From positions 1-38,789 of IMG/VR virus record IMGVR_UViG_3300032213_002584: 38,789 nucleotides of DNA. One strand, given 5' to 3'. The notes beneath the pieces are model-generated. The model saw nothing but the letters and a program-made list of their open reading frames with translations. It was not told the origin of the DNA and searched no databases. The position numbers were made by a program, and so were the translations under genes. This DNA comes from a virus. Its lineage: Duplodnaviria; Caudoviricetes. This document shows positions 2,383-38,789 of the stretch, one piece after another (positions within the stretch are counted from its first letter, which is position 1; each line of letters starts with the position of its first letter).

Positions 2383-2388
2383 ATACAC
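2383..2388 (-). promoter_or_regulatory. GTGTAT putative late-promoter motif
   Basis: Directly after the U-tract of the tail-tube terminator, 30 nt upstream of ATG 2352. Confidence 0.6.
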
Positions 2389-3585: not shown

Positions 3586-3591
3586 TTACAC
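3586..3591 (-). promoter_or_regulatory. GTGTAA putative late-promoter motif
   Basis: GTGTAATAAATA, 25 nt upstream of the tail tube ATG 3560. Confidence 0.75.
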
Positions 3592-6019: not shown

Positions 6020-6025
6020 TTACAC
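6020..6025 (-). promoter_or_regulatory. GTGTAA motif, 8 nt before ATG (leaderless-type)
   Basis: GTGTAATATATTATATG; no SD. Confidence 0.75.
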
Positions 6026-11857: not shown

Positions 11858-12229
11858 TTATATTGTTACTTCTGGTGAAACCATAAATCTACCTCTAAGT
11901 AATTTAACTGCATCACCACTTAGATTAGAAGCAGTATATCTTTCTACATCATAAACAAAAGATCCTACTGGTAAATTTTGAGTTAAATAAGATCCTACAT
12001 TAATAAATATAATACCAGATGGAAGATATTCTCCATAAGTACCACTGTAAATGACAGGATGAAATTGTAATAAAAGTCCAGAAATTCCAGTATATCCATA
12101 ACCATATCGTACTTGTCCACGAACATCAAATCCACTTAAATTAATAGCATTCCCATAAGAATCTCTTACAATAAGAGTTAAATTTAAAACGTCACCTTGA
12201 ATTGCTTCTATATTGTATGATGTTGCCAT
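11858..12229 (-). CDS. Ig-like fibre adaptor (BppU N-terminal-like) protein; start corrected to ATG 12229
   Basis: QGDVLNLTLIVRD...INLSGFDVRGQVR...LPVGSFVYDVE...LLRGRFMVSPEVT pattern; ATG lies 8 nt after GTGTAA. Confidence 0.7.
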   Translation of the reverse strand: MATSYNIEAIQGDVLNLTLIVRDSYGNAINLSGFDVRGQVRYGYGYTGISGLLLQFHPVIYSGTYGEYLPSGIIFINVGSYLTQNLPVGSFVYDVERYTASNLSGDAVKLLRGRFMVSPEVTI

Positions 12230-12237
12230 ATAAAATA

Positions 12238-12243
12238 TTACAC
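12238..12243 (-). promoter_or_regulatory. GTGTAA motif, 8 nt before ATG
   Basis: GTGTAATATTTTATATG. Confidence 0.75.
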
Positions 12244-12249
12244 TTTTAA

Positions 12250-14868
12250 TCAAAAATAAAACGGTACATATATTCTTCCAAAATCTGGATGAAAAGCGCC
12301 AACTATGCCTGTTCTGCTTCCAATTTGCAGTGTCATTTGAGGATTTGGGGATGTTCCTTGTCCTGTAGTTAATAAATTTTGACCAGTAGAAACAAAGCCA
12401 GTATAAGGAACAGTAGTACTATTAGATCCAGTTGTATCAACAAAATAATAAAGTCCAGAATCTATTGTTTCTACAATCATCCATTGATTAGCTAGTCTTA
12501 ATCCACTTGCGCTATTAGCAATTGGAAAAAGGTTTCCACTAGTATTATTTCCATAAATTAAACTTAAATAATTATCTTCTGATAGATAATAATTAGTCAA
12601 TGCACTTACATATGTTGGATTAAAGTTATTACTAAAATTATTTGTTAATTTATATCTTTGATTAACGCTTGATGTTAATATTCCAGTACTAAAACTTGGG
12701 GGTGGATTAAAACCACTATAGAGACTTCCATTATATACGTTGATAGATCCAGTACGAACCCAATTTGAAACTGGAAAAGTATTACCGTCACCATTATTAT
12801 AAAAATAAAATCCTTCACCAGTTGAATTTGCTATAACCCATCTTGCTGGAATTAATGCAGTTGTATAAATTATAGCTAATGAATCATTTGGATTACTATA
12901 AAAATAAATTCCAGATACACCATAATCTCCCTGATAAGCGGATACTTGAGTTCTATAAAAATTGCTTGTTGATATAAAATTTGATCCATCTCTAATTCCA
13001 GAATATCCAGAATTTGGAGAATAACTTATAACAGGTATATTTGTACCACCATTTATAATATTAATTTGATCAGCTAGATGGTCAAATTCGTTATCTACTA
13101 TATCTAATTGGCTAAAACTTTGTCCACTAAAAGGCAAATATTCAAAAGAAGCTAATCTATTATTAGAAACAAAATTTCCAGAATCAGCAGATGTCAGTAT
13201 CTTTTGATCATTAATTGTTGGATCTAAAACAGATGTAATTTCAACTTTGTCTAATTTAATACTTAAATTTGTGCTACTTGATGTACCTAAACGAATTTTT
13301 CCTATTTCATTTAAACCAGTAAGATTTTGATTTCTTCCAACTACTATACAGCTTTGTGCTCCAGTTCCTATTATGTTAGATGTACCAAAAGCTGAATTAC
13401 TATTACCAAGAATCAGATTCGTATTTCCTACAGATATATTATTATTTCCATATAAAATATTGTAATTTCCAACATTTAAGAATTGATTAGATAAATTATT
13501 TCCGCTTATTAAGCTCGAATTTCCTAGTAAAATTGAATCTGATATATTATAAATTGATTGACTATTTCCACCAATATAACTTTTATTTACATTTTTAATT
13601 AGATTAGAGTTTCCAACTAAATAATTCCCAGTTACTTCTTCATTTAAAATATTATTATTTCCAACTAAGAAATTATTAAATCCAGAAAAATTATTAGAAT
13701 TTAAATCTCCAATAATTTTATTATTAAGATTTGAATTTAAATTTGCGTTTCCCAAAATTAATGAATTTGTCGAATTTAAATTTAAATTTGAATTACCAAT
13801 TACGATATTATTTGGTCCAACATTACCGTCTATTATTTCTTCTGACTCAAGAGTAACATCTCCTTGAATTGGTGCTCCACTCCAAATTGGATCATAAAAA
13901 TTCCAACCAGTAGCTTGCCAAGGATTAATAGATTGTCCTATTGAATAATAGACATCTTGTCCATCATTTTCGCTATATATATTCCACTTACTTGTGTCAT
14001 TATATATTGTGCTAGAGCCAAATGGATCAAGTGGATCTATAGAATAAACAGCTTCTATTCCAGTACTAGTATCAATTGGATAATACCTTGCATTAATATA
14101 TTCAGCGCCAGCATTGACTACATTTACAAAAGATTGACCACCTGGAACTGTGCTTGCTATTGAAGAATTGTTAGATCCAATTATTAAAGTAAAATCTCCA
14201 GAATTTGAAAGATTTGAAACTCCAAATAATAGACTTGTATTTGAGTTACTAGCTGAATTAGTATTACCAATTAAATTTAAATTTGAAGTATTTTCACCAT
14301 AATTTCCTATACCAAAAATATTATTACTTATTCCTTTTATACTAGTATTAGCTAATCCAATTAAACTTATTGAATTACCACTTTGTAAAACATTACTGTT
14401 TCCTAAATTTACAACTGATACACCACCAGAAATATTATTAAAATCTCCTACGCTATAATTTGCAACTCCATTTTGAATAAAATTAGAAGTACCAAATATC
14501 TCTATACTAGAAGAGCTTTCTAAAGAATTAGATGCACCTATTACATAAACATTATCACCACTACCTAAGTAATTTAATCTTCCAATAATATATTTACTAT
14601 TTCCATCATAAGATGAATTTGCAAAACCAAGTATAAAGTTTTCATTTACATTTTGAATATCATTTGCATATCCAATTGCTGCTGATGGAGCAAAAAAATC
14701 ATTAATACCAGTAGGAATCTTTCCACTATTGAAATTGAATTTACCTATTGCAATTCCAGTTTCAGCATATAAGTAGTTTCTATCTCCAAGTACAATTTGA
14801 TTAGAGGGTAACTCTATAAATTTACCAGAAACGTAATTAAGTAAATACGAACTACCAGAGATAATCAT
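12250..14868 (-). CDS. fibre/adhesin-like protein with YadA-head-like beta-roll repeats (872 aa)
   Basis: Many ~14-aa N/G/S-rich repeats (xxIGxxNxxxx) in two blocks separated by Trp-containing modules. Confidence 0.7.
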   Translation of the reverse strand: MIISGSSYLLNYVSGKFIELPSNQIVLGDRNYLYAETGIAIGKFNFNSGKIPTGINDFFAPSAAIGYANDIQNVNENFILGFANSSYDGNSKYIIGRLNYLGSGDNVYVIGASNSLESSSSIEIFGTSNFIQNGVANYSVGDFNNISGGVSVVNLGNSNVLQSGNSISLIGLANTSIKGISNNIFGIGNYGENTSNLNLIGNTNSASNSNTSLLFGVSNLSNSGDFTLIIGSNNSSIASTVPGGQSFVNVVNAGAEYINARYYPIDTSTGIEAVYSIDPLDPFGSSTIYNDTSKWNIYSENDGQDVYYSIGQSINPWQATGWNFYDPIWSGAPIQGDVTLESEEIIDGNVGPNNIVIGNSNLNLNSTNSLILGNANLNSNLNNKIIGDLNSNNFSGFNNFLVGNNNILNEEVTGNYLVGNSNLIKNVNKSYIGGNSQSIYNISDSILLGNSSLISGNNLSNQFLNVGNYNILYGNNNISVGNTNLILGNSNSAFGTSNIIGTGAQSCIVVGRNQNLTGLNEIGKIRLGTSSSTNLSIKLDKVEITSVLDPTINDQKILTSADSGNFVSNNRLASFEYLPFSGQSFSQLDIVDNEFDHLADQINIINGGTNIPVISYSPNSGYSGIRDGSNFISTSNFYRTQVSAYQGDYGVSGIYFYSNPNDSLAIIYTTALIPARWVIANSTGEGFYFYNNGDGNTFPVSNWVRTGSINVYNGSLYSGFNPPPSFSTGILTSSVNQRYKLTNNFSNNFNPTYVSALTNYYLSEDNYLSLIYGNNTSGNLFPIANSASGLRLANQWMIVETIDSGLYYFVDTTGSNSTTVPYTGFVSTGQNLLTTGQGTSPNPQMTLQIGSRTGIVGAFHPDFGRIYVPFYF

Positions 14869-14877
14869 CTATATAAT

Positions 14878-14883
14878 ATACAC
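14878..14883 (-). promoter_or_regulatory. GTGTAT motif, 9 nt before ATG
   Basis: GTGTATATTATATAGATG. Confidence 0.7.
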
Positions 14884-15279: not shown

Positions 15280-15285
15280 TTACAC
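15280..15285 (-). promoter_or_regulatory. GTGTAA putative late-promoter motif
   Basis: 27 nt upstream of ATG 15252, downstream of the capsid terminator. Confidence 0.65.
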
Positions 15286-16497: not shown

Positions 16498-17070
16498 TTA
16501 GAGTTCAATCTTGAGAGGAGCTATGCCATTGACAGAGGTTCCCAAGAATGTTCCAACTTTGGTTGCACCAGCGAGCAAGCTATTTGATGCAACAACTTCT
16601 CCTTGACTAGCAAATGAGATTTGTGCAACTTGACCTGCTGTAGCAGTTACTCCACTATAAAGTACAACACCGCGTGTTAGAACTGGAACTGTTTGTCCAC
16701 TTACAACAACGCCCATTTCTGCAGCTTTACGAGGATTGAAAACGAGTTTTTCACCATTTTCGTCTAGTTCACGAATATCAAGTAGTGTCATACCGAGTAC
16801 TGCACTACCAGATGTGGCTAGAGTTACTTTTGGTACAGCGCCGTAACGATCTGATACAACATTGTTGTAAGATGCGCCAACTGCGCCGAGTGATTCAATT
16901 GGATTTCCCAATGTGTTTGAAGCAACAGGTTGAAAACCTGGGGCTACGACTCTAACGAATGCACCTTTTGTTGCTACAATAGATGGACTTTCAGCAACTC
17001 CACTATATGTAAAAACATTAAGAACATCATTTTCGTCATAACTTCTGAATGGTCTAAGATTATGTGCCAT
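16498..17070 (-). CDS. putative capsid decoration/cement protein (190 aa)
   Basis: Small beta-rich A/V/G/S protein between scaffold and capsid; AAAGGAGA SD. Confidence 0.6.
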   Translation of the reverse strand: MAHNLRPFRSYDENDVLNVFTYSGVAESPSIVATKGAFVRVVAPGFQPVASNTLGNPIESLGAVGASYNNVVSDRYGAVPKVTLATSGSAVLGMTLLDIRELDENGEKLVFNPRKAAEMGVVVSGQTVPVLTRGVVLYSGVTATAGQVAQISFASQGEVVASNSLLAGATKVGTFLGTSVNGIAPLKIEL

Positions 17071-17088
17071 GATTTATTTCTCCTTTGT

Positions 17089-18621
17089 TTATTTTACTAT
17101 GAAACCTTCCTCTAAACTAAAAGCTCTGCCATATTTTTCTTTTAATGTGGCTTCACTTGTAGATGAAGAGTTTGGTATAGATGCTTTTTCAACTTTGCCG
17201 TTGGAAATAGCATCTTCAACTACTTCAGAAACTGTTTCTGAAACGGTTACTGGTTGCTCAGAAGCGATTACTTCTGTTGCAACAGATTGTTCTGCTTTTG
17301 CCATCTTAGCTTTTTTAGCAGCCTTATTTTTTTCTTTCATAAGGACTGCCATTTTCTTTTTGTAAGCGGCAAAAGTTTCTTCTTCTAAATCTTTAATGTC
17401 TGTGGCGAGTACTTGACGATCTTCGTCGTCTAGATCGAATTCTTCGTCAAGGCCAGCCATGCGAATATTAAATGCTTCTTCTTTAGCTTTAGCTGCTGCT
17501 TCGGCTTCGATAGTAGCAAGCTTTTGATTTACTTCTTCGAGTTGTTTCTTTAGAGCTTCATGCTCAGATGAAACGGTTTCGAATTTTTGATTAGCAGCTT
17601 GAATAGCATTATCTTTTTCTGCTTTTTCAGCAATGAATTTCTCGCTAACTTTTTGAAGTTCTTCAGCGATAAAATCTGTTACTGAGGAAGCTTTTACTTC
17701 TTTAAGAAGTTCGTCTGTAATTTCAGATATATTGTTTATCTTCATAATTATTCTATTTGTTATCCTCTCTTGTTTTACATCTAAATTAGATATTTGGGAA
17801 ATATTATTTTCAGCTTGATTAGATTCAACTTCTTGAACCTCATCTTCCTCAATTTTAATTTCTGGAATATCCTCTTCTGTTTTCATTACTACTCCACCAA
17901 CATCTGCTGCTGGATTTGTAGTTAAACCTATACCTAATGGTATAACTTCACCTAAAACTTGTCTATAAATATAAGAATCACCATTTATTTTGCCAGTTCC
18001 ACCCAAAGCTTTTAGATTATTAGATAATTTTTCTTTTTCGGCTTCATCTGTGATAAATTTGCCATTTTCTATATTCTTATCTTTACCTTTTAATACTACA
18101 AGATTATAATCATTAAATCCCAATTCCCAACTAGCACTTATTGTCATATATTCGCTACTTGAAGGATCATTGCTTTCTTCTATAAGATCTGATAGTTTAG
18201 GATTAACTACTTTCCATATTACTCCACCAAGGGTAATATTAAATGGTTCTGTCATTTCTTTTACGTCTAATTCTGCTAGACTTTCATTTGAACCAAATTT
18301 ACTAAAATTGTATGATACAATACAACCTACTATTTTTGTTCTATCATGTTCAAGATTAATAGGTTTATTTATAAAATTTTTAGCTACTTCTGATGCTGTT
18401 AATCCATTAATAACATCGCCATTTTTATTTACTCTATTAACGACACAAGCATCAAAAGCGATAGGTAATAAGTCAATATTTGCTTTTAAGTCTATATCTG
18501 GTAAAAACTTTCTAAGTTCATTTTCAGATGCTAAAGCTAGATATTTATCTTTTTCTTCACTAACGACTGGTCTTAATTTGATACTAGAAAATATTGTAGA
18601 AAATTTAAATTTGTTTTCCAT
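17089..18621 (-). CDS. prohead protease-scaffold fusion; start corrected to ATG 18621
   Basis: N-terminal domain with NKNGD, KPINLEHD (His), ISASWEL (Ser) and GLTTNPA, typical of HK97/herpes-type maturation proteases; C-terminal E/K/A coiled coil. Confidence 0.75.
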   Translation of the reverse strand: MENKFKFSTIFSSIKLRPVVSEEKDKYLALASENELRKFLPDIDLKANIDLLPIAFDACVVNRVNKNGDVINGLTASEVAKNFINKPINLEHDRTKIVGCIVSYNFSKFGSNESLAELDVKEMTEPFNITLGGVIWKVVNPKLSDLIEESNDPSSSEYMTISASWELGFNDYNLVVLKGKDKNIENGKFITDEAEKEKLSNNLKALGGTGKINGDSYIYRQVLGEVIPLGIGLTTNPAADVGGVVMKTEEDIPEIKIEEDEVQEVESNQAENNISQISNLDVKQERITNRIIMKINNISEITDELLKEVKASSVTDFIAEELQKVSEKFIAEKAEKDNAIQAANQKFETVSSEHEALKKQLEEVNQKLATIEAEAAAKAKEEAFNIRMAGLDEEFDLDDEDRQVLATDIKDLEEETFAAYKKKMAVLMKEKNKAAKKAKMAKAEQSVATEVIASEQPVTVSETVSEVVEDAISNGKVEKASIPNSSSTSEATLKEKYGRAFSLEEGFIVK

Positions 18622-18630
18622 ATATTCAAT

Positions 18631-18636
18631 ATACAC
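18631..18636 (-). promoter_or_regulatory. GTGTAT motif, 9 nt before ATG
   Basis: GTGTATATTGAATATATG; the ORF track used the motif's GTG as the start codon. Confidence 0.7.
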
Positions 18637-19239: not shown

Positions 19240-19245
19240 ATACAC
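19240..19245 (-). promoter_or_regulatory. GTGTAT motif, 9 nt before ATG
   Basis: GTGTATAATTATACTATG. Confidence 0.7.
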
Positions 19246-23603: not shown

Positions 23604-23609
23604 TTACAC
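23604..23609 (-). promoter_or_regulatory. GTGTAA motif, 6 nt before ATG
   Basis: GTGTAATATACTATG. Confidence 0.7.
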
Positions 23610-23646: not shown

Positions 23647-26100
23647 TTAATAAAGGAAAGTAACATCTACTGAATTACTAACCCCAGTCATTCCAATTAT
23701 ATAATTTGGTACTCTCAAAATCAATTGAACTCGATCCCCAAAATTAATATCTATATTGGGCGTTATTTCACCAGTGAAAATTGCAAGAGTTGCGTTGGCT
23801 GCATGTCTTATTTGTGTGCTTATTATTCCACTCATATTAGTTGTATTGTTTACAAAATAACCAGTAGATTGGTTAGTGGTAGAGTCTTGTTCTCTTGCAA
23901 CAGCTGTGTATGTTCCCCAAGAAGCATATTTAGCTTTACATTTTTGCATCATAGTTACTCTTCTTTGAGTCGAAATTACAGAAGCATCTAAAGCCTGTAG
24001 ATTGGCAAAATGATATGTATTATTATTCATATTTGTATTATCATGAGTAAATGTTGTTATAAAAACACCTTGTCCAGCAGATGCTTCCCCACTTAATAAA
24101 ACCCCTGTGCCATTTACCGTTGGACGAGAAGCAAATGTTTTAACTCCGCTAATAGTTTGATTGCCAAATGTTAATACTGAAACTCCGCTTAAATTATTTA
24201 TTTTTGTATTTAAAGTTGAACCAGTAGAAGCAAGATTAATAATTGTGGCAAATTTATTATCTGCTACTCCACTATAAGCTATAATTTCTTGAACTGATGC
24301 TATATCAGGCAAAGGTGAGAGATCACTATTTCTTGTGCTAATTCCAAATTTAAATTTATTGCTGTGATCAAATCCTATAATTGGACCACTATCATTTATT
24401 CCAGTAAGACCAACTCCAGTAACAAAGAAAATTCCGCCATCAGTTGCGCCACCAGATATATTTAAAAGAAGATATGGATTAGCTATATTAAGGACTGATG
24501 TATTTACAATAGTTTCTGTTCCAGTTACAATTAAATTATTAATAATTGTATTGCCATAAAAACTTTTATTACCAAATATTATTTGATTTCCAGTATTATA
24601 AACTAAATTATTAGCTAATATATTTCCATCTACTTCTAATTTTTCAGAAGGTATGTTTGTTCCAATTCCTATATTGCCGTTATTTTTTATTGCTAATCTA
24701 TTAATCCCTTGACTTGGATTTTCTGCTGTATAAAATATTATATCTCCACCTTGCCAATTATATAATTCAAACTTATCTTCATTAATGCCAAAAAATGCAC
24801 CTTTGCCTGCTCCACCGCTATTTAAAATTTCTAAAAATGTATCTTGATTATTCGATTGGAGACTTAATGTATATGGATAACTTGCATCTACTATAGTATC
24901 ACCAATTACTAAACGACCACTTATATTTTGATCACCAGTATTATAAATAAGATTACTTGCGTTAACTTTATTTAAAACTAAATTATTAGCATAAAGATTA
25001 TCAACATAAAGATCACCATCTATCTGTTCGTCTGTTTTAGAAACGTAAATTTGTCCATCACCATCATCAACTGCACTTTGATATTTTCCATCACTGCTGA
25101 TTGAAATACTACGCCAGCTTCTGTTACTCTCTTTTGCAATCCAAGAGTTTCCATAGTTTGAAGAAACGTAAATTTGTCCGTTATAAACAACTACACTCTG
25201 GTATTTACCATCACTACTTATTGAAACATTAACCCAGTTTCTGTTACTCTCTTTTGCAATCCAAGAATTTCCGTAGTCTGAGGAAATGTAAATTTGTCCA
25301 CCATAAACAACTGCGCTCTGATATTTTCCATCACTACTGATTGAAATACTCCACCAAGTTCTATTGCTTTCCTTAGCAACCCAAGAGTTTCCATAGTTTG
25401 AAGAAACGTAAATTTGTGCACCAGAACCAACTGCGGTTTGATATTTTCCATCGCTACTTATTGAAACATTAACCCAGTTTCTGTTACTCTCTTTTGCAAT
25501 CCAAGAATTTCCGTAGTCTGAGGAAATGTAAATTTGTCCACCATAAACAGTCGCAGTTTGATACTTACCATCACTGCTGATTGAAATACCAAACCAACTC
25601 CTCATGCTTTCCTTAGCAACCCAAGAATTTCCATAGTCTGAAGAAACGTAAATTTGTGCAGAAAGACCAACTGCGGTTTGATATTTTCCATCACTACTGA
25701 TTGAAATTCTAAACCAGTTTCTGTTAATCTCTTTTGCAACCCAAGTATTACCAAAGCTACTATCGACTAATCTGCTGGTATTTTGAGAGAGTTTTGTTCT
25801 TCCTAAGAAATATCCTCCATCATAATTTCCAGAGTATCCTACTCCAGCAAGATATCCACTTGGTTGAGAACTTTGTAAAAGGTTGTCTTGGAGAACTAAA
25901 TTGTTAGTGAAGCTTTTTACTCCACTGATAATTTGGTCGCCAGTATTATAAACAAGATTGCTTGCATTGACTTGATTTAAAACTAAATTTCCACTTGTTA
26001 GTCTTGTAAGATTTCCACTGACTATTCCTAATAAAGAACTATTAGAATAGGTATTAACAGTATCAATTGTAGAGAAGCTATTGACGTTTTTTGATGACAT
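23647..26100 (-). CDS. mosaic fibre protein with Asp-box/BNR beta-propeller repeats (817 aa)
   Basis: About six 40-aa repeats with SxDYGNSW; GNIGIGTNIPSEKLEVDG; shared SRPTVNGTGVLLSGEA module. Confidence 0.8.
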   Translation of the reverse strand: MSSKNVNSFSTIDTVNTYSNSSLLGIVSGNLTRLTSGNLVLNQVNASNLVYNTGDQIISGVKSFTNNLVLQDNLLQSSQPSGYLAGVGYSGNYDGGYFLGRTKLSQNTSRLVDSSFGNTWVAKEINRNWFRISISSDGKYQTAVGLSAQIYVSSDYGNSWVAKESMRSWFGISISSDGKYQTATVYGGQIYISSDYGNSWIAKESNRNWVNVSISSDGKYQTAVGSGAQIYVSSNYGNSWVAKESNRTWWSISISSDGKYQSAVVYGGQIYISSDYGNSWIAKESNRNWVNVSISSDGKYQSVVVYNGQIYVSSNYGNSWIAKESNRSWRSISISSDGKYQSAVDDGDGQIYVSKTDEQIDGDLYVDNLYANNLVLNKVNASNLIYNTGDQNISGRLVIGDTIVDASYPYTLSLQSNNQDTFLEILNSGGAGKGAFFGINEDKFELYNWQGGDIIFYTAENPSQGINRLAIKNNGNIGIGTNIPSEKLEVDGNILANNLVYNTGNQIIFGNKSFYGNTIINNLIVTGTETIVNTSVLNIANPYLLLNISGGATDGGIFFVTGVGLTGINDSGPIIGFDHSNKFKFGISTRNSDLSPLPDIASVQEIIAYSGVADNKFATIINLASTGSTLNTKINNLSGVSVLTFGNQTISGVKTFASRPTVNGTGVLLSGEASAGQGVFITTFTHDNTNMNNNTYHFANLQALDASVISTQRRVTMMQKCKAKYASWGTYTAVAREQDSTTNQSTGYFVNNTTNMSGIISTQIRHAANATLAIFTGEITPNIDINFGDRVQLILRVPNYIIGMTGVSNSVDVTFLY
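25036..25760 (-). repeat. 120-bp coding tandem repeat, about 6 copies, with 240-bp higher-order identity
   Basis: Blocks starting at 25141/25381 and at 25261/25501 are near identical. Confidence 0.92.
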
Positions 26101-26108
26101 AATATAAT

Positions 26109-26114
26109 TTACAC
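26109..26114 (-). promoter_or_regulatory. GTGTAA motif, 8 nt before ATG
   Basis: GTGTAAATTATATTATG. Confidence 0.75.
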
Positions 26115-27317
26115 TTAATAAATTAATACTTTAGAAGTATTTGAATATAAGACATTACCACTAGCGAATAATCCTTTTGTGCCAAAATCTGGATCTAAAT
26201 CAAAAGAAAATGCCAAATTAGCAGTTTTATTAGAACCGATAGATGAACTATAGTTAATATTATTAAATTTACAGCCACTAAATATTAATCTTGTAGGATA
26301 TACATTATTTGGATTATTACCAAAATTTACAATTATATTATAATCACTGTCAGCATTTAAAGTATTAAAAAATGAACCACTAAGATTTTCTTCTACAACA
26401 AAAGACATATCAACATTACCATTTACTGGAAATTGAATTACGCTAGTCAATGGAAATTTATAGTTTAAAGCTCTTAGAGAGTTTCTTCTGAAATCTAGAG
26501 AGAAGTTAAGGCTTTGAATTGTGTCAGTATAGAATAATACCCCAGTTATATTCTTAGTAAAAAAACTAATATTTGCATTTCCTGGTAAAAGAATATTTTG
26601 TCCACTTATACCAGTTTGGTTGTAGTCTAAATTTCTAGGAACAATTACTAATTGATTTTGAATTTGATTTATGCCAGATTTTATATCTAAAACTGTATAA
26701 TTTATTCCGCTTCCACTTGTATACAAAATCATATTATCTGCAGAATAATTTTGAGTTACTGTTGGTATATTACCTACTGAAATATTAAAAGAATATTGAT
26801 TAAGATTACAATGTTGAAAATGTAACAATCCATAATTGGGACTATTAAAATCTATTACATCATTTACTGAAGATGGATTAACTGAAGAATTTAAGAACTT
26901 TGCGTTTTGAGAAAATAAATCATTTTCATTTTTATTTATAGCAAGATAAAAATCTCGATCATTAATTAATGAGTCATTTGAACATAGGCCAGAAAACATA
27001 GGAACTTGATTTCTAGATTGAAAATTTGCTGTGTTAAAATTTAATCTATTCTCGTTTGTAAATCCATCTGGAATATAAGAAAAAGTAAAAGTAACTTCTG
27101 GTGGAGAATATACTCCATTGAAAATATTTTTCTTTTGATTAAAGCCAACTAGATTTGATCTATTTTGTTGAATTGAGTAATCAAAATTTTGTACTTTTTC
27201 TATTCTTTTTAAAATTAAGGAATTTGGTAGATAATAATCTGATGAAGCATTTTGTTCTCCAGAATATGGGGCGACAAATAATCCTTGTACATTGTAGATA
27301 ATTCTATTTCTAGGCAT
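26115..27317 (-). CDS. tail-tube-like paralog (400 aa)
   Basis: Colinear with 2442..3560: MPRNRIIY; IQSLNFSLDFRR vs IQSYSLSFDLTR; IQFPV vs IDFPV; SSSIGSNKTANLAFS vs SSDIGSNKSVTLNFS; GLFASG vs GLFFSG. Confidence 0.75.
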   Translation of the reverse strand: MPRNRIIYNVQGLFVAPYSGEQNASSDYYLPNSLILKRIEKVQNFDYSIQQNRSNLVGFNQKKNIFNGVYSPPEVTFTFSYIPDGFTNENRLNFNTANFQSRNQVPMFSGLCSNDSLINDRDFYLAINKNENDLFSQNAKFLNSSVNPSSVNDVIDFNSPNYGLLHFQHCNLNQYSFNISVGNIPTVTQNYSADNMILYTSGSGINYTVLDIKSGINQIQNQLVIVPRNLDYNQTGISGQNILLPGNANISFFTKNITGVLFYTDTIQSLNFSLDFRRNSLRALNYKFPLTSVIQFPVNGNVDMSFVVEENLSGSFFNTLNADSDYNIIVNFGNNPNNVYPTRLIFSGCKFNNINYSSSIGSNKTANLAFSFDLDPDFGTKGLFASGNVLYSNTSKVLIY

Positions 27318-27339: not shown

Positions 27340-27345
27340 TTACAC
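27340..27345 (-). promoter_or_regulatory. GTGTAA putative late-promoter motif
   Basis: 22 nt upstream of ATG 27317, leader carries tandem TAAGG. Confidence 0.7.
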
Positions 27346-29267: not shown

Positions 29268-29273
29268 TTACAC
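29268..29273 (-). promoter_or_regulatory. GTGTAA motif, 12 nt before the portal ATG
   Basis: GTGTAATATTTAAATAATATG; abuts the terminase stop codon. Confidence 0.7.
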
Positions 29274-31118
29274 TTATTTTATCATTATCGGTGTGAAAAC
29301 CTCGGATATCTCCTCTTTTGGTTGCATTATTAAATCATTATAGCACTTGAGGCCCCAATTTGCTAACATAAATGCTGAATAATTATCTTTTCTAGCTTTA
29401 TTTGCAGAAGAGCTACGCTTTAAATGTTGTGGTAAATCGAAGGATTGAGTACCTCTGCTGGTAGAAGAGTGTTCTACAAGAGTACATTGTTTTTTGGTTT
29501 GATATATTAAATCATCTTGACTTTCTATAAAATCCAACATTCCCCAATCTTTACGCTCTTCTGTTTTTAATAAGCTAGTGTCAATATTTGAATTAAATTG
29601 AGTATTAAAAAATTCATCATTAGCGCAAGTTCTACTACCAAACCATACTTTTTTATAATCAATACATGCTTGTAAATGTTCATTTGCTTTTCTAATAAAA
29701 GAACTAGTGAATACTTGATTAATTGCTATTCTTCTATCAGATAAGTTATATTTATTTTTACTATTTTTAAGCATATTATCGTAATCTTGACCCTCTAGAT
29801 CAGAGTCAAAATCAAATGTCTTAATATCTAATTTGCTATTTTTAAATAATTCAGATTCATTACAAGCAGATAAAAATACATCCGCTCCTGCATTATCAAG
29901 AATCATAAATACTATATTAAAATTATTTAAAAGATAATAAAGATAGCCTACATGATTTTTTAAATTTCCAAGTCCAGCATAACTATTAACCAAAATACCT
30001 TGTTTAGTTTCATCATCAACCTCAAGTAATGCCATAGCAAAATAATCTGCATTTGGACTATCGCTCATATTAGGATCGATTCCAAGTATATATTTTTTAT
30101 TTGGCTCGCCTTTTAATAATGTATGAGGTTTTTCACCAATTTTAATTGTGCATTCTTCCATCTTTTTGGCATTAAAATAACTATCACTTCCATCAGTAAA
30201 TCTAGCGCAATATTCTCTTAAGAAACTTGAATGACTTGATCCACCAGCTTGAGCTTCTTCAATAATAGTTTTATCAATCATTTCTTCTGGTAGTGCTTCA
30301 TAACTCAATTGACTTACAAAGTACTTTGCTTCGTTTACTTCTTTATCTAATATCTTATCGCTCCATTCATTATAAGTTTTATATAAATTTTCAAATGTAT
30401 AACTGGCAGATGAAAGAGCTATCATTTTACTTGTATTTTCAAAAACCATTCTCTCTGATTCTTTCATTGATCCTTCTGCGATCAACTTATCTTCTAACTC
30501 TCTTATCTCCATGCGCTCTTTAATATTTTGTGGAGCTACTAAGAATGGCATCAATACATTTTTGATAATTTCTTCTGGAAGCAAAAGGAACTCGTCAAGC
30601 ACAAGAATATTAGCTCGGAATCCTCGAATCTTTTCGCCATTAAGAGGAATTGCTACTATACTGCCACCATTAATTTGCCATTCAAATTGATCATTTCTTT
30701 TTGCTTTTGCTCCAAAGCATTGAGCAAGTAATTCTGCGCCTTTGCTATCTACTATTTTTTCAAGATTATTGAAAATAAAACGTGCAGTTCTAAATGTTGG
30801 ACCAGCAATAAGAATTTTTGTATTAGGTTCAAATATACATTGAAGAAAACAAAATACTGCTGCCATAAATGATTTTCCACAACCACGACCGAACACGCAC
30901 ATATTAAAATTTCTATTCATTAAAGCTTTTAAATGCACTTCTTGATATGCAGCTAATTTGACTCCACTTATTAATTCAGTTGTAAATCCAATATTTGCTC
31001 TCAAAAATTTAGCTAAACTTATTCTAGCCTCTTTATCATTGAGATATCCCTTTAGTTGAGCTAATTCAGCATTAACGTCTTTAACTTCTCTAATGTATTT
31101 ATCTGGACAATATATCAT
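29274..31118 (-). CDS. terL: terminase large subunit (614 aa)
   Basis: YQ adenine-binding motif, Walker A GRGCGKS, IRGFRANILVLDE Walker B, LSSA motif III, FLREY, RNase H-like YILGIDP...DYFA and KDNYSA. Confidence 0.93.
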   Translation of the reverse strand: MIYCPDKYIREVKDVNAELAQLKGYLNDKEARISLAKFLRANIGFTTELISGVKLAAYQEVHLKALMNRNFNMCVFGRGCGKSFMAAVFCFLQCIFEPNTKILIAGPTFRTARFIFNNLEKIVDSKGAELLAQCFGAKAKRNDQFEWQINGGSIVAIPLNGEKIRGFRANILVLDEFLLLPEEIIKNVLMPFLVAPQNIKERMEIRELEDKLIAEGSMKESERMVFENTSKMIALSSASYTFENLYKTYNEWSDKILDKEVNEAKYFVSQLSYEALPEEMIDKTIIEEAQAGGSSHSSFLREYCARFTDGSDSYFNAKKMEECTIKIGEKPHTLLKGEPNKKYILGIDPNMSDSPNADYFAMALLEVDDETKQGILVNSYAGLGNLKNHVGYLYYLLNNFNIVFMILDNAGADVFLSACNESELFKNSKLDIKTFDFDSDLEGQDYDNMLKNSKNKYNLSDRRIAINQVFTSSFIRKANEHLQACIDYKKVWFGSRTCANDEFFNTQFNSNIDTSLLKTEERKDWGMLDFIESQDDLIYQTKKQCTLVEHSSTSRGTQSFDLPQHLKRSSSANKARKDNYSAFMLANWGLKCYNDLIMQPKEEISEVFTPIMIK

Positions 31119-32050
31119 AATAGTTTTAAATCATATGCTAATTGAAGATCTACTTTACTATAAAAACATTTACTAGCAAATATAGATTCAATTGTCCTCT
31201 TCATCTCTTCTCTACCATCAACAAATAAGAATTGCAAATTACTATATTCTTGAATCAAGGATCTTACGTTATGAAATATATATTCTGGCGTAGCTTTAAT
31301 CTTTTTACTAATATGAGGAAGATATTGAAAGCTTAATGCATTTGCTAGTTTTTCTTCAACAATAACAATCAAATAAGAATTATTCTTTTGAGCTTTATCT
31401 ATTTCATTTTTGAATCTATCAAAATTCTTGACGCTTAATGTGCTTATAAAGTCACTTAGGCTTTTTCTTTCTATATAACATCCACAATTATCATTACTAC
31501 AAGCATAATCTCCAAAAGATAATGTTTTAATTTCGAATGGAATATCAAATTTAAGCCAACTTTGCTCTCTTGTATCAACGTAAATTGTATCTTTTTTATT
31601 TAATTTATTATTGAATTGATCTGTTATATTAGATGGATGAATAAATTTATTTTCTAAACCAATACTTGAACACACATCATAATAGTCATGAAATATTTTA
31701 TTATAAAATACAATCGATGGGCTCATTATAGTTCTAAGTTCTATCTGTGATGGAGAATATATTAGATTTTTATCTTTCTTTCTTTTGATTAAAAGATTTC
31801 TACAATATTCTTGTGCTTGATCTAATGACTGTTCTTTAAGCCATTTTTTCATATTATTCTTATCATTAAAATCACTATTTAAGTATTGATCTTTAGTTTT
31901 GAAATTAATTGTTTCGCCAGTAAGAAGATCTTTTTTGGGATAATAAGCGTGATAGTATTTCTCTTTATTTAAACCATAGCCTCTTAACGCAAGATGAAGA
32001 CTTTTTTCATCTTTAAATTCTTTCCCATCTACTTTACATATCACACTCAT
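31115..32050 (-). CDS. ERCC4/XPF-family nuclease with N-terminal extension (311 aa)
   Basis: IYVDTREQ, LSFGDY, IERKSLSDF (ERKxxxD), RFKNEI, LIVIVEE. Confidence 0.85.
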   Translation of the reverse strand: MSVICKVDGKEFKDEKSLHLALRGYGLNKEKYYHAYYPKKDLLTGETINFKTKDQYLNSDFNDKNNMKKWLKEQSLDQAQEYCRNLLIKRKKDKNLIYSPSQIELRTIMSPSIVFYNKIFHDYYDVCSSIGLENKFIHPSNITDQFNNKLNKKDTIYVDTREQSWLKFDIPFEIKTLSFGDYACSNDNCGCYIERKSLSDFISTLSVKNFDRFKNEIDKAQKNNSYLIVIVEEKLANALSFQYLPHISKKIKATPEYIFHNVRSLIQEYSNLQFLFVDGREEMKRTIESIFASKCFYSKVDLQLAYDLKLL

Positions 32051-33141
32051 CCATTTAAAATCTCATCCTTTGAGATTCCTAATATTTTACATTTAATTTC
32101 ATCCATAGTAGATAAACGATCAATTTCTTTTTCAATAGTTTTCTTGCGGAGATCTGCCATCTTTAGGAGCTTTGCTCTGCTGTCTTCTTCTTTCCACATT
32201 TGCACAAGATTAATAATTGATGCAGTTTCTTTTACTTGTTTACTTAGTCTATCGCTTCTCTTAACCTTTAAATCATTATTTAACTTTTGTTGTCTATTAA
32301 CACAATCATTGTATTCTTTACGAGCAGTACTACTTGCTTCTACAATTGTCATTGGAATTTTACCATCCTCTTGCATTGATAATTCTATTTGATTTTGAAG
32401 TACATTAATTGTTTGTTGTATGCTAGATGATATAACTACTTCTGTGCAAAGAACTATATATTGATCGACTTCTTCTTGAGTTAAGTCACTCTTATCATAA
32501 GTATATCTAACAAAACTGCTTTCAAAAAGTTCTCTGTCTGGTTCATTATCATAAATATTAATTTGATGTATGAATCTATGAGTATTCATATAGCCAATAA
32601 GAGAATTAATTTCTTTTTTATGTTTATGAGTTAATTTGTTCTTATCTATACCATCTAAAACATATTTATTGACTTTAGCAATCATTCTTTCTTCACTACG
32701 AGGTGGTCTATATCCTTCTGTTGCAGCATTTTCATTTTCTGTATTATTGAATTTAATATTAGTAGGTATATTTTTCATATACTCTAATACTGATCTAGTT
32801 TCCTGACAAAGATTAGTTAAAGTATCATTTTTGAAAAGTAATCTCGCTATCTCAAGGCCAGTCATTGTAATACAATTATTACTAATAAATTCTTTTTGCT
32901 CTATTGTTAATTCTATTAAACCTTTAGCTTGATATTCATGACTCTTCTTTGGCACAATTTGTCTTGAAGCTAAAAATAGTTTAACAGCTTTACCTTCTTT
33001 TGATCTTCCATCTAGATCATCTCTATCAAATGCAATTTTTACAAGCTCTATAAGAGAAGGTGGATTATTTGGTCTACTATTCCATTCTTGTAGTAGCTTT
33101 AATTGCTGCTCTTCAGTCAATATTAAGACTTCTTCTGACAT
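32047..33141 (-). CDS. hypothetical helical protein, candidate terminase small subunit (364 aa)
   Basis: Two HTH-like N-terminal repeats (LTEEQQ...SLIELVKIAF; LTIEQK...TGLEIARLLF) and a C-terminal coiled coil; coupled upstream of nuclease and terL. Confidence 0.45.
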   Translation of the reverse strand: MSEEVLILTEEQQLKLLQEWNSRPNNPPSLIELVKIAFDRDDLDGRSKEGKAVKLFLASRQIVPKKSHEYQAKGLIELTIEQKEFISNNCITMTGLEIARLLFKNDTLTNLCQETRSVLEYMKNIPTNIKFNNTENENAATEGYRPPRSEERMIAKVNKYVLDGIDKNKLTHKHKKEINSLIGYMNTHRFIHQINIYDNEPDRELFESSFVRYTYDKSDLTQEEVDQYIVLCTEVVISSSIQQTINVLQNQIELSMQEDGKIPMTIVEASSTARKEYNDCVNRQQKLNNDLKVKRSDRLSKQVKETASIINLVQMWKEEDSRAKLLKMADLRKKTIEKEIDRLSTMDEIKCKILGISKDEILNG

Positions 33142-33148
33142 ATATTTA

Positions 33149-33832
33149 TTATACGATATCTATCTCGCCATTATATAAATATTTTCTTACTTTTAACATT
33201 ATAGATTTTTTAAGATTTTTAACTTGTTTATATCCAGCTGATCTATTCTTTTCTGAAGTTCTATATCCCATTATTTTCGCTGCTTCTTCTTCTGTTTTGT
33301 GTTGAATATATACTAGGTTGTAGAATTTCCATTCTATTGGTTTTAGTACTTGTATCATTTTGGTATGAATATTTTTTGCTGTTCTTTCGATATTAGTTAA
33401 ATCTTCTTTCATTGAAAATACTTCTTGAGTATGATTCTCTAATGTTACTGGAAGCTTTACATCATAAGCTGATTTTTTACTCTTTTCCCACTTAGCGTAT
33501 AGTGGGCAAGAGTTGCATTGTTTGCCATAAATTGAACATAAATTTTCGCCTTCAAATGCTGAACATTTTAAACATGGACGAGAATAGTTACCATAATTAT
33601 TGCGAATTAAATTTTTAATCTGATTACTGATAATTCTATTAACCCAAGGAGCTAGGGTCTTAGTTTGATTATATAGCTTCCACTTTTTATAAATATGTAT
33701 TCTTAATATTTGAGCAACATCATTAAAATCCATCCAACCTAAACTAGTTAAATGCCATTTACCACGGCGCTTGTAAATCTCGTTATCTATTTCTTGGATC
33801 TTCTCTTCAAAAGAAGCCTTTTTATTAGACAT
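33149..33832 (-). CDS. ECF-like RNA polymerase sigma factor with Cys-rich insertion (227 aa)
   Basis: Region 2: DFNDVAQILRIHIYKKW...LAPWVNRIISNQIKNLIR. Region 4: LKPIEWKFYNLVYIQHKTEEEAAKIMG. Linker CLKC...C...CNSC. Confidence 0.8.
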   Translation of the reverse strand: MSNKKASFEEKIQEIDNEIYKRRGKWHLTSLGWMDFNDVAQILRIHIYKKWKLYNQTKTLAPWVNRIISNQIKNLIRNNYGNYSRPCLKCSAFEGENLCSIYGKQCNSCPLYAKWEKSKKSAYDVKLPVTLENHTQEVFSMKEDLTNIERTAKNIHTKMIQVLKPIEWKFYNLVYIQHKTEEEAAKIMGYRTSEKNRSAGYKQVKNLKKSIMLKVRKYLYNGEIDIV

Positions 33833-34299
33833 TAGCTTCTCTTAGTTTTTCTAATTGAACCAGCTTCTCTTGCGAAATCTTCTAAAACTTGTTTTTTTGA
33901 TGGTCTTTTTCCAGCCTTAACAGCTCTTGATTCTCTTGGAGCGTCTGGTTCAGTTCCAACTATGTCCTTTAATTTTTGACCTCTCTTTGGACGACTTTCT
34001 GCTTCTACTTCGAGATTATCAATTTCTGGAACAGAGTGTACTTCTTGATCTTGATCATAATCATCTTCATCATCAATATAATCTTCTATATCTTCGACCC
34101 GTGCTCTTTGTGGTCTATTAATTTTTGAGCTTGTTATTTTATTAATTTTAGTTGGGAAATTAGCTTTTGGTTCTTCTTTAACCATTTTAACTTCTACTGG
34201 AGTAACCTTTTCGAATGACTTGCCACAAGTAGAGCAAAAAACTGGTTTTTTATCAATATATTCTGTTGGAGACCCACATGAAGTACAATATCTTTTCAT
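33832..34299 (-). CDS. zinc-ribbon protein with acidic disordered tail (155 aa)
   Basis: YCTSCG...FCSTCG; D/E-rich tract; TAATG coupling to the sigma gene. Confidence 0.8.
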   Translation of the reverse strand: MKRYCTSCGSPTEYIDKKPVFCSTCGKSFEKVTPVEVKMVKEEPKANFPTKINKITSSKINRPQRARVEDIEDYIDDEDDYDQDQEVHSVPEIDNLEVEAESRPKRGQKLKDIVGTEPDAPRESRAVKAGKRPSKKQVLEDFAREAGSIRKTKRS

Positions 34300-34741: not shown

Positions 34742-34747
34742 TTACAC
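34742..34747 (-). promoter_or_regulatory. GTGTAA motif, 8 nt before ATG
   Basis: GTGTAATTATAAATATG. Confidence 0.75.
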
Positions 34748-35490: not shown

Positions 35491-35496
35491 TTACAC
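35491..35496 (-). promoter_or_regulatory. GTGTAA motif, 17 nt before the phoH ATG
   Basis: GTGTAATATATTCTGTAAGCAGCATG. Confidence 0.7.
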
Positions 35497-37317: not shown

Positions 37318-37323
37318 TTACAC
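37318..37323 (-). promoter_or_regulatory. GTGTAA motif, 8 nt before ATG; first of the minus-strand late region
   Basis: GTGTAATAAATTATATG. Confidence 0.75.
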
Positions 37324-37434
37324 TAATATTTATATTATCTGTATATATAATAAGGGTTTTATAAAAATAAAGAGCCCCTGGATTTTTTTAGTTTTGAGAT
37401 TTTTTGAATATTTATTCTATGTTATGTTTTTAAG

Positions 37435-37600
37435 AAAAGGGTAGGGGGGATATACATATAGCTATATATAAGATAATATATTATATTTATTGGGGAGATT
37501 GATATTAGTACCCCCGCGTTTAATTTGTAACGCAGAGCGATCTCGCTTTTTCAAAAAAGGGTAGGGTTTTCTAAATAAAATAGGGGTAGGGAGGGTAGAT
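37435..37600 (+). repeat. GGGTAGGG direct repeats / G-tract cluster in the divergent noncoding junction
   Basis: GGGTAGGG at 37439, 37559 and 37584; AAAAGGGTAGGG repeated 120 bp apart. Confidence 0.7.
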
Positions 37601-37617
37601 ATATATAACTAAAGTCC

Positions 37618-37638
37618 TAAGTCGTTGACTATCAATGA
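37618..37638. repeat. imperfect palindromic motif TAAGTCGTTGA-CTA-TCAATGA (copy 1)
   Basis: Left arm TAAGTCGTTG is the reverse complement of CAACGACTTA at the window end. Confidence 0.6.
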
Positions 37639-37658
37639 AATTTAAATGAAGAAATATC

Positions 37659-37686
37659 TTGTGATATTCTTATTCTGTGATAGATT
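37659..37686 (+). promoter_or_regulatory. sigma70-like (extended -10) early promoter, leaderless
   Basis: TTGTGA-16 nt-TAGATT with TGn extension; ATG 6 nt downstream; no SD. Confidence 0.55.
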
Positions 37687-37692
37687 AACTCT

Positions 37693-37845
37693 ATGAAGAA
37701 AAAACTAAGTAAGTATGAACAACTGATCGCAAACCTCAACAAGGCAAGCCAAGACCTCAAGGTGGCTTCTGATAAAGCCATCGCAACCCTTGACGCTCAC
37801 GCCAACAAGGTGGAAGCTATCCATCAGGAAGCGATGACTAAATGA
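37693..37845 (+). CDS. small coiled-coil early protein (50 aa, MKKKLSKYEQLIANLNKASQDL...); not in ORF track
   Basis: Translated by hand; follows the promoter; C-ending codon bias. Confidence 0.7.
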   Translation: MKKKLSKYEQLIANLNKASQDLKVASDKAIATLDAHANKVEAIHQEAMTK

Positions 37846-37925
37846 ATATCGATACCCTCATCTTCACCCTTACCATTGGAAGCATCCTCGTCGGCATCTA
37901 TGGTATGGCAACAGCTAAAAAATAA
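37842..37925 (+). CDS. 27-aa single-pass membrane peptide (MNIDTLIFTLTIGSILVGIYGMATAKK); not in ORF track
   Basis: ATGA overlap with the upstream stop; hydrophobic core and basic tail. Confidence 0.6.
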   Translation: MNIDTLIFTLTIGSILVGIYGMATAKK

Positions 37926-37928
37926 TAG

Positions 37929-37957
37929 TTGACGAAACATAAACAGAAAGGCAATAT
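37929..37957 (+). promoter_or_regulatory. sigma70-like early promoter, leaderless
   Basis: TTGACG-17 nt-CAATAT, ATG 7 nt downstream at 37965. Confidence 0.55.
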
Positions 37958-37964
37958 ACAACCT

Positions 37965-38384
37965 ATGAAACAAAACCTCAAAATCAGTTACCAAACCTTC
38001 GGCGAAAACAATGCTTACCTTCTCGAAGGAAGCATCAAACAAATCAATCACTTCTTCAATAGTATCTATAATTGGGAAGGAACTAACGGCAAGTTGCACG
38101 ATATGGGCAACGGCAAAGCGTTTTACTTCTACGCTCATCCAGATGATGTCATGAAAGCTCTCACTAAGGTTGCGTTGCATAGCTTGGTTAATAAGATCAA
38201 CGCTAAGGGACGCAAAGGTGGACTGCTCGACATTGCAAAAGCAAAGGCACAGAGTGTCATCGATGAGATGGCACAGACTTGCTTCCTTTGGGGTGCGACT
38301 AGCTCCGAAGGATATAGCCTTGGCACTATCAGTGCAGAGAAGCCTAGTGACTACTGTGGTGCAGTTAGCAACGGAAGGGACTAA
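37965..38384 (+). CDS. hypothetical early protein (139 aa); start corrected to ATG 37965
   Basis: The track's TTG start is the putative -35 box; the ATG sits at the predicted +1. Confidence 0.7.
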   Translation: MKQNLKISYQTFGENNAYLLEGSIKQINHFFNSIYNWEGTNGKLHDMGNGKAFYFYAHPDDVMKALTKVALHSLVNKINAKGRKGGLLDIAKAKAQSVIDEMAQTCFLWGATSSEGYSLGTISAEKPSDYCGAVSNGRD

Positions 38385-38388
38385 TACT

Positions 38389-38766
38389 ATGACAGCAGAA
38401 CTATTCATCGTAGCATTAACAATACTTGGCGAAGCTAGGGGCGAGACATTCGAGGGAATGGCTGGCGTTGCTAGCGTCATTCAAACACGGATGATAGAGC
38501 GTAAGCAGACAGCCTCACAGATCTGCCTAGCACCTAAACAATTCAGCTTCTGGAATGGGGGTGTGAGTGAAGCTACTAAGAAGAAGCTACTGGCAACAGC
38601 ACAAGGTAAGAACGCTCTATACCTTGCTGACCTAGTTATCCATCAGCAGATGCCAGACATTGTAAAGGGTGCAAACCATTACCACGCCATCAGCGTCGCT
38701 CCTAGGTGGGCTAGAGACGCAAGGTTAGTGGCTACAATACGCAACCACAAGTTCTATAAGTTGTAA
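38389..38766 (+). CDS. SleB/CwlJ-type cell wall hydrolase (Hydrolase_2, 125 aa); start corrected to ATG 38389
   Basis: ALTILGEARGE..GMAGVASVIQTR, QFSFWN, GANHYHA, PRWA, IRNHKFY. Confidence 0.9.
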   Translation: MTAELFIVALTILGEARGETFEGMAGVASVIQTRMIERKQTASQICLAPKQFSFWNGGVSEATKKKLLATAQGKNALYLADLVIHQQMPDIVKGANHYHAISVAPRWARDARLVATIRNHKFYKL

Positions 38767-38789
38767 GTAGCTGAATACCAACGACTTAC
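38763..38789. repeat. imperfect palindromic motif GTAAGTAGCTG-AATAC-CAACGACTTAC (copy 2)
   Basis: 11-bp arms, 9/11 complementary; directly after the SleB stop, at the window end. Confidence 0.65.

What the first reader, a model, noticed from the sequence alone, without database searches (positions are those of the whole stretch)
33149..33832. Phage ECF-like sigma factor with a 5-Cys (Zn-finger-like) insertion, candidate reader of GTGTAA
Seen: a sigma region-2-like segment (DVAQ...WVNRIISNQIKNLIR) and a region-4-like HTH are separated by PCLKCSAFEGENLCSIYGKQCNSCP. The HTH turn carries extra residues (MGYRTSEKNRSAGYKQV). Inference: an altered region 4 fits promoters lacking a -35 box, and the Cys cluster may bind Zn or an Fe-S cluster as a structural, partner-binding or redox element. 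With the motif this would be a complete late-transcription system. No other sigma-like gene is in the window, but one could lie outside it.
Basis: partly seen in the sequence, partly recalled or inferred. Interest (0 to 1): 0.85.

Follow-up and report, generated by a model that had tools for sequence, protein, structure and literature searches.

The report
Four-cysteine phage late-gene sigma factor
A large family of uncultured tailed phages carries a divergent sigma-type transcription protein with a built-in four-cysteine module (likely zinc-binding), and it likely steers the host RNA polymerase to a one-box signal, GTGTA, found just ahead of the virion genes: a known phage strategy in a structural form I did not find described.

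Summary
The ORF is real (33149-33832, minus strand, 227 aa) and is a sigma70-type protein by profile and predicted fold (sigma2 + sigma4). The Cys cluster is a four-cysteine site, not five: C87, C90, C99 and C109 are invariant in 140 of 140 aligned homologs, C106 in 70. The module sits in the slot of sigma region 3.0-3.1 and matched no solved fold. GTGTA(A/T) is not over-represented in the window, but it precedes 15 of 38 starts (0.9 expected). It marks virion genes, while replication genes carry TTGACA/TATAAT promoters. Calibrated on those, it lies at -14..-9, and the sigma's conserved residues (equivalents of RpoE N84, N80, I77) predict G-12/T-11. No -35 consensus was found. Most relatives have a second sigma, the main rival; two motif-bearing genomes lack it. 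A sister subfamily at 21% identity keeps the four Cys and, in the one genome read, the motif, but has lost the region-4 HTH. Best reading: the late sigma of this clade (0.75). Zinc binding and polymerase binding are untested. New variant of a known kind.

The parts
33149..33832 (-). Sigma70-type gene, 227 aa (P0001)
33593..33811 (-). Sigma region 2 (aa 8-80): D38/Q41 of region 2.2; W63, I67, N70, N74 = RpoE W73, I77, N80, N84
   Evidence: gapless alignment to 5or5_A; conservation
33488..33577 (-). Four-Cys module (P86-W115; C87, C90, C99, C109 invariant) leading into a basic helix, in the sigma3.0-3.1 slot
33431..33454 (-). LPVTLENH, aligned to the PxSLD start of region 3.2
   Evidence: low-probability global profile alignment
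33173..33391 (-). Sigma region 4 (aa 148-220) with a 9-residue insert in the HTH turn
33832..34299 (-). Zinc-ribbon gene (CxxC-x13-CxxC, 155 aa), first gene of the operon, its stop overlapping the sigma start; candidate cofactor
   Evidence: a CxxC..CxxC ORF lies directly upstream in 141 of 151 clusters; no homolog in G014:C4
34308..34337 (-). Candidate host sigma70-type promoter of the sigma operon (TATAAT 8 nt before the ATG, poor -35); no GTGTA here
   Evidence: sequence; TAnAAT 5-8 nt upstream in 71 of 141 relatives, GTGTA in 21
29274..33141 (-). Rest of the operon: 364-aa unknown, ERCC4 nuclease, large terminase
   Evidence: exactly this order in 90 of 127 clusters
29268..29273 (-). GTGTAA, 12 nt before the 635-aa gene (portal by position and size, inferred)
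27340..27345 (-). GTGTAA, 22 nt before the 400-aa tube-like gene, AAGGA in the leader
26109..26114 (-). GTGTAA, 8 nt before ATG
23604..23609 (-). GTGTAA, 6 nt before ATG
19240..19245 (-). GTGTAT, 9 nt before ATG
18631..18636 (-). GTGTAT, 9 nt before the ATG that heads the capsid operon
15280..15285 (-). GTGTAA, 27 nt before ATG, AAGGAG in the leader
14878..14883 (-). GTGTAT, 9 nt before ATG
12238..12243 (-). GTGTAA, 8 nt before the ATG at 12229
6020..6025 (-). GTGTAA, 8 nt before ATG
3586..3591 (-). GTGTAA, 25 nt before the 372-aa tube-like gene, GGAGA in the leader
2383..2388 (-). GTGTAT, 30 nt before ATG
34742..34747 (-). GTGTAA, 8 nt before ATG
35491..35496 (-). GTGTAA, 17 nt before phoH
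37318..37323 (-). GTGTAA, 8 nt before ATG

Best explanation
This gene encodes a sigma70-type protein with a conserved four-cysteine module, and it is likely the phage's late sigma factor, predicted to load onto host RNA polymerase and start virion-gene transcription at the one-box element GTGTA(A/T). Steps: (1) host sigma70 transcribes early genes and, in most relatives, the zinc-ribbon/sigma/terminase operon (inferred from promoter sequences). (2) The sigma binds core through region 2.2 (inferred, about 0.9). (3) Region 2.3-2.4 reads G-12 T-11 A-10 as ECF sigmas do (inferred from register and residues, about 0.8). (4) The C4 module binds one Zn (about 0.75) and, with its basic helix, stands in for region 3.0, holding the duplex just upstream (G-14 T-13) so that no -35 box is needed (about 0.45). 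(5) Many late mRNAs are leaderless or nearly so (inferred from spacing).
For: Fold and profiles. Four Cys invariant in 140 of 140 and in 119 of 119 of a sister subfamily. Motif at two or more starts in 113 of 120 sigma clusters with at least 10 kb, reversed control 8. In four large relatives, structural genes have 23 GTGTA against 2 sigma70 calls, replication genes 1 against 13 (p 1.7e-7). Sigma70 -10 boxes end 6 nt before ATG (22 of 64) and GTGTAW 8 nt (28 of 105), giving -14..-9. N74 = RpoE N84 in 139 of 140, and Asn there activates -12G promoters (bioRxiv 2020.06.23.168245). G003 (CheckV 100%) has motif and this sigma but no second-sigma ortholog. G014:C4 (53% GC, sigma 21% identical, HTH collapsed) has all 12 TAGTGTATT of a 4.7-Mb assembly, several before portal, neck and tube genes.
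Against: No binding, metal or transcription data, and no mapped start site. A second sigma occurs in 4 of 5 near-complete genomes tested and also has Asn at the N84 position; G003 and G014:C4 carry other, unrelated sigma-like genes. In the motif-first sample only 7 of 23 records held the sigma, the rest being fragments or single matches, and G043 is unresolved. The motif did not change in 9 clusters with H, S or Y at the N70 position. The sigma3-slot alignment has 32% probability. One homolog (P0238) lacks the module. In gp36 a -10-only consensus still needs -35 contacts. The gene classes were chosen by hand and the genomes are related.
Confidence: 0.75

Rival explanations
1. The second phage sigma ('sigma B', about 200 aa, in the nucleotide-metabolism block) reads GTGTA, and the C4 sigma does something else.
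For: Present in 4 of 5 near-complete relatives tested; Asn at the N84 position in 8 of 8; no third promoter class was found for it.
Against: Not found in G003 or G014:C4 (best hit 28.6 bits against 135-175 for orthologs, Arg at the N84 position), both of which have the motif. It has W or Y, not N, at the N80 position. The C4 sigma is the one tied to the terminase operon.
Confidence: 0.1
2. GTGTA is read by a host sigma (primary or alternative), perhaps with a phage activator; the C4 protein is an activator or decoy and not the initiating sigma.
For: GTG-TATAAT-like sites exist (19240, 18631, 14878). The host is unknown.
Against: No T is enriched at the TAnnnT position. The same genomes have plain TTGACA/TATAAT promoters as a separate class. 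The motif persists from 28% to 53% GC and has no match in the other 4.5 Mb of the assembly that holds G014:C4.
Confidence: 0.08
3. The late-sigma reading is right, but the Cys site holds an Fe-S cluster or a redox switch that times late transcription.
For: Four Cys can ligate either metal (general knowledge). Metal-responsive Cys-rich ECFs exist (CorE; PMC8999054). The module has no fold match that would fix the metal.
Against: CxxC plus two spaced Cys around a hairpin, with loops that vary in length, is typical of structural Zn sites (recalled). No Fe-S family was hit in 140 members. The CorE features (C-terminal CRD, CXC) are absent.
Confidence: 0.12
4. GTGTA is an RNA-level or translation signal unrelated to this protein.
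For: Its distance to ATG is sharply fixed (116 at 8 nt, 77 at 9 nt).
Against: It also occurs 17-30 nt upstream with a separate Shine-Dalgarno sequence between. In those leadered sites pyrimidine/purine is favoured at the same -1/+1 register. It heads operons, not every gene.
Confidence: 0.03

Closest known systems
phiEco32 gp36 (with helper gp79)
   Same: Phage two-domain sigma for middle/late genes; short single consensus AATGTA that shares TGTA with GTGTA (PMC12276001); fold match Z 7.0 (9m7y_F).
   Different: No sequence homology (HHalign 1.4%); gp36 has no Cys; its -35 contacts are essential; register differs by about one base.
ECF (group 4) sigmas RpoE, SigW, SigR, SigH
   Same: Best sequence matches of region 2; same -10-reading residues; G-12 T-11 core.
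   Different: A folded C4 module and a 3.2-like motif lie between regions 2 and 4; no -35 consensus; below the TIGR02937 cut-off (31.2 against 42.9); no anti-sigma seen; HTH insert.
ECF238 / CorE metal-responsive sigmas
   Same: Conserved Cys inside a sigma factor, including the linker (PMC8999054, PMC7826278).
   Different: CorE has a C-terminal Cys-rich domain and a CXC; here CxxC-x8-C-x9-C is internal and there is no C-terminal extension.
T4 gp55 late sigma
   Same: Late transcription from a -10-only box by host polymerase (recalled); region-2 fold match Z 7.0 over 76 residues (7d7d_F).
   Different: gp55 lacks region 4 and needs gp33 and gp45 (abstract of PMC7892883 names the three; the rest recalled); different box; no C4 module.
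Primary sigma region 3.0 and extended -10 promoters
   Same: Region 3.0 reads a TG extension that makes up for a missing -35 (PMC8695583); the module occupies that slot.
   Different: Here the slot holds a Cys module, not the helical sigma3 domain; no Sigma70_r3 hit in 140 members.

Membership tests
sigma70 family | Region 2 domain with core-binding and -10-reading helices | tested here: met
   Pfam r2 in 117 of 140; D38 invariant; fold
sigma70 family | Region 4 HTH domain | tested here: met
   Z 9.4, 71 residues, 2.4 A to 3mzy_A; Pfam r4_2 in only 9 of 140; collapsed in the sister subfamily
sigma70 family | Binds core RNA polymerase and directs initiation | not testable with these tools
   needs biochemistry; host unknown
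ECF / group 4 | Only sigma2 and sigma4, no sigma3 domain | tested here: inconclusive
   no Pfam r3 hit, but a folded module and a 3.2-like motif fill the slot
ECF / group 4 | Bipartite -35/-10 promoter consensus | tested here: not met
   best upstream 4-mer z 4.1, exceeded by 3 of 60 permutations (584 sites, 153 gene families)
ECF / group 4 | Curated model score | tested here: not met
   TIGR02937 31.2 bits, cut-off 42.9
ECF / group 4 | Autoregulated gene with adjacent anti-sigma | tested here: inconclusive
   GTGTA before the operon in 21 of 141; neighbours are a zinc-ribbon gene and an unknown 364-aa gene
ECF238 / CorE | C-terminal Cys-rich domain and linker CXC | tested here: not met
   sequence, alignment
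phiEco32 gp36 family | Sequence homology to gp36 | tested here: not met
   HHalign 1.4%; no tblastn match in 50,697 phage records
phiEco32 gp36 family | Dedicated helper (gp79) | not tested
   no search for gp79; the zinc-ribbon neighbour is only a candidate
T4 gp55 | Region 2 only, no region 4 | tested here: not met
   region 4 fold present
C4 zinc site | Four invariant Cys in a compact module | tested here: met
   pLDDT 84-92 over residues 11-50 of the 64-residue model
C4 zinc site | Match to a known zinc-finger fold | tested here: inconclusive
   Foldseek 0 rows; VIA best Z 2.1
C4 zinc site | Bound Zn | not testable with these tools
   needs metal analysis

The most novel reading that the evidence does not exclude
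A distinct architecture of sigma factor in which a metal-binding C4 module of unmatched fold has replaced domain 3 and itself reads the extended -10 bases, making region 4 dispensable (already collapsed in a sister subfamily). One five-base promoter would then be kept across a very large, uncultured phage lineage down to 21% protein identity, giving an orthogonal one-box expression system.
Probability: 0.4. Interest if true: 0.78.

Novelty: new variant of a known kind. Interest (0 to 1): 0.56.

Why it matters
Phage late sigmas are known, but I found no paper on one with an internal four-Cys module in place of domain 3, or on a GTGTAA phage promoter (searches; open-access library only). The family is large (1,942 clusters at 90% identity; a further 175 in the sister subfamily) and has no relative among 50,697 deposited phage records. 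The sigma-promoter pair is directly testable in vitro. It would show how a sigma can work without a -35 box, and the motif can be used to call late operons and true start codons in these genomes.

Tried and rejected
Raw count of GTGTAA: not enriched. Fifth Cys as a ligand: rejected. A -35 consensus: none above permutation; only G+C dips near -39, -28 and -18. A third promoter class for sigma B: none seen. Fold of the isolated module: no match, which does not show a new fold. G027 as a counter-example (8 strict matches, no C4 sigma): the contig also lacks terminase, portal and capsid homologs, so the locus is missing from it. Locus of the module-less homolog P0238: not found. Host: MAG hits span unrelated taxa, and the RpoD-like gene of G004 gave no host; unresolved. 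RNA runs: only contigs, at small word shares; four were laid and give no start sites and no proof of transcription. Complex prediction of the sigma with the zinc-ribbon protein: the queue was full and no job ran, so there is no result. Scans with single distant proteins or loose alignments found nothing or could not be run. Cultured relatives by capsid: none; by terminase: about 25% identity only. My ATG-only ORF caller truncated some sigma ORFs, which inflates the count of 162 clusters somewhat. Supplements were not read.

Full report
Setting. The window is a whole 38.8-kb virus record, 31% G+C, with nearly all genes on the minus strand: terminase, a weak capsid hit, tail-fibre genes, lysin and phoH. 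The gene in question is the second of an operon: zinc ribbon, sigma, 364-aa unknown, ERCC4 nuclease, terminase. In relatives a CxxC..CxxC gene lies directly upstream in 141 of 151 clusters, and the exact downstream order holds in 90 of 127. A relative with a 73% identical sigma (G001, 134 kb) has a tape measure, lambda-like tail-tip genes, a DNA polymerase and nrdAB; none of its 103 proteins scanned matched an RNA polymerase family.

The protein. Region 2 is found by Pfam, PHROG and NCBIfam at or below cut-off. The model matches sigma factors in three libraries with weak E-values and Z up to 9.4. There are 1,942 homolog clusters at 90% identity and 318 representatives at 50% with E 1e-10 or better; Atlas clusters are viral. 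I aligned the query with 125 of the 150 listed representatives (205-260 aa) and added 14 close homologs (A1, 140 rows). Invariant: D38, C87, C90, C99, C109, W115. C106 is present in 70 of 140. Of 252 fetched proteins of 200 aa or more, 232 fit a strict C4 pattern; on reading the other 20, 19 have four Cys with other spacings and one (P0238) lacks the module. Folded alone, the module is confident in its core and matches nothing. A global profile alignment to 58 RpoD-like proteins (probability 32%, E 8e-5) puts P86 on the P of RTIRIP, LPVTLEN on PxSLD, and a 9-residue gap in the HTH turn. So the module and its basic helix fill the region 3.0-3.1 slot; this placement is a lead, not proof.

The motif. 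GTGTAA is no commoner than chance, but GTGTAW precedes 15 of 38 starts against 0.9, either 6-12 nt upstream or 17-30 nt upstream, often with a Shine-Dalgarno-like sequence between. Across 322 sigma-bearing loci (162 clusters) it is the top upstream hexamer, peaking at 8 and 9 nt; 113 of 120 clusters with at least 10 kb have two or more sites, reversed control 8. Four large relatives show two separate promoter classes. Among classed genes, structural ones have 23 GTGTA-only, 2 sigma70-only, 1 both and 44 neither; replication ones 1, 13, 0 and 45. Sigma70 boxes end 6 nt before ATG, which implies leaderless mRNA, and this places GTGTAW at -14..-9. No TAnnnT and no -35 consensus were found.

Linking the two. 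The gapless alignment to the RpoE/SigW chimera 5or5 gives W63=W73, I67=I77, N70=N80, N74=N84, H46=K56. In Todor et al. (bioRxiv 2020.06.23.168245; passages) Asn84 activates -12G promoters, and I77, N80 and a basic residue 56 go with -11T. That is the G-12 T-11 seen here. The match is not unique: 4 of 5 near-complete relatives tested carry a second sigma that also has Asn84. Two genomes argue against it. G003 (211 kb) has the motif on portal, prohead, tube and tape-measure-sized genes and no ortholog of the second sigma (local search of 210 of 211 kb). G014:C4, a 158-kb, 53% G+C phage contig in a bacterial assembly, has a C4 sigma at 21% identity just upstream of terminase and portal, no zinc-ribbon homolog and no clear second-sigma ortholog. 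All 12 TAGTGTATT of that 4.7-Mb assembly are on this contig (the flanks of the pattern were chosen after seeing it). Its subfamily (175 clusters; 119 of the 120 listed aligned) keeps four Cys and both Asn, aligns to A1 at 99% probability, and lacks about 23 residues of the region-4 HTH. The motif was read in only this one genome of the subfamily.

Motif-first test. A strict pattern gave 122 loci, of which 80 were analysed. Of 27 on contigs over 50 kb, 23 were held and 7 encode the sigma. Among the four near-complete ones, one has it, two have a single strict match, and G027 lacks the whole head module. G043 (3 matches, no family hits nearby, 65% complete) was not followed up. I found no clear counter-example, but this direction is not proven.

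Mechanism. Shown: sequence features, conservation, synteny, promoter classes, co-occurrence. Inferred: core binding, reading of GTA by region 2, Zn, the role of the module, leaderless starts. Region 3.0 is held to read the extended -10 TG and to make up for a missing -35 (PMC8695583; passages), which makes the module a natural reader of G-14 T-13. Caution comes from gp36, whose AATGTA consensus still needs -35 contacts by Y186 and R187 (PMC12276001; abstract, introduction and one results section). Here Y201 (87 of 140) and K/R202 (109 of 140) head the recognition helix, so region 4 may still touch DNA in the main subfamily.

Comparison. It works like phiEco32 gp36 or T4 gp55 but is a member of neither family. 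It is ECF-like in region 2 but fails the promoter and model tests. CorE-type Cys sigmas differ (PMC8999054, PMC7826278; passages); the latter notes that phage sigmas escaped the ECF classification. Other papers read as passages: PMC7824862, PMC3397946, PMC12019637, bioRxiv 534826 (77). Searches found no description of this family. Three earlier notes of this scan reach the same reading on other genomes; they are not independent evidence.

Verdict. A real and well-supported candidate late sigma with a C4 module, a new variant of a known kind. Interest 0.56.

Noticed in passing
G001:102820-103449 (L333:7820-8449 +); G002, G004, G006, G008, G010, G021, G027, G028, G032, G039: A second conserved sigma-like family of about 200 aa with no promoter class found; G004 also has an RpoD-like gene (159316-160134).
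   Followed up: partly
L241 / G014:C4:18781-19374: Sister subfamily (about 197 aa) with the C4 module and a collapsed region-4 HTH, on a 158-kb phage contig inside an assembly labelled Hydrogenophaga.
   Followed up: yes
P0238, P0239: Homologs lacking all or half of the Cys module; P0238 has a short basic linker in its place. Locus not found.
   Followed up: partly
window 18631-18636, 19240-19245, 12238-12253: Mechanical ORF calling starts these genes at a GTG or TTG at or upstream of the motif; the likely ATG is downstream of it.
   Followed up: yes
G001-G004: Host-type TTGAC/TAnnnT promoters mostly end 6-8 nt before ATG, pointing to a host that translates leaderless mRNA well.
   Followed up: partly
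window 2442-3560 and 26115-27317: Two tube-like paralogs, both starting MPRNRIIY, each behind its own GTGTAA.
   Followed up: no
window 6055-6561, 7499-8041, 8202-11852, 23647-26100: Four fibre genes share the block GNQxISGxKTFASRPTVNGTGVLLSGEA, a possible recombination module.
   Followed up: no
L333:14016-14945 (G001): Hit to phrog_1211 (2-aminooxy adenylosuccinate synthetase, PurA/PurZ-like), E 3e-63.
   Followed up: no
G004:45115-46271 and 25465-27305: Capsid and terminase homologs each appear as two ORFs (frameshift, insertion or assembly error).
   Followed up: no
G001:63318-63370; G002:13394-13440, 17063-17095: Back-to-back GTGTA promoters between divergent genes.
   Followed up: no
window 37400-38789: The end of the record, with overlapping ORFs on both strands and no family hit for the one scanned; not examined.
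   Followed up: no
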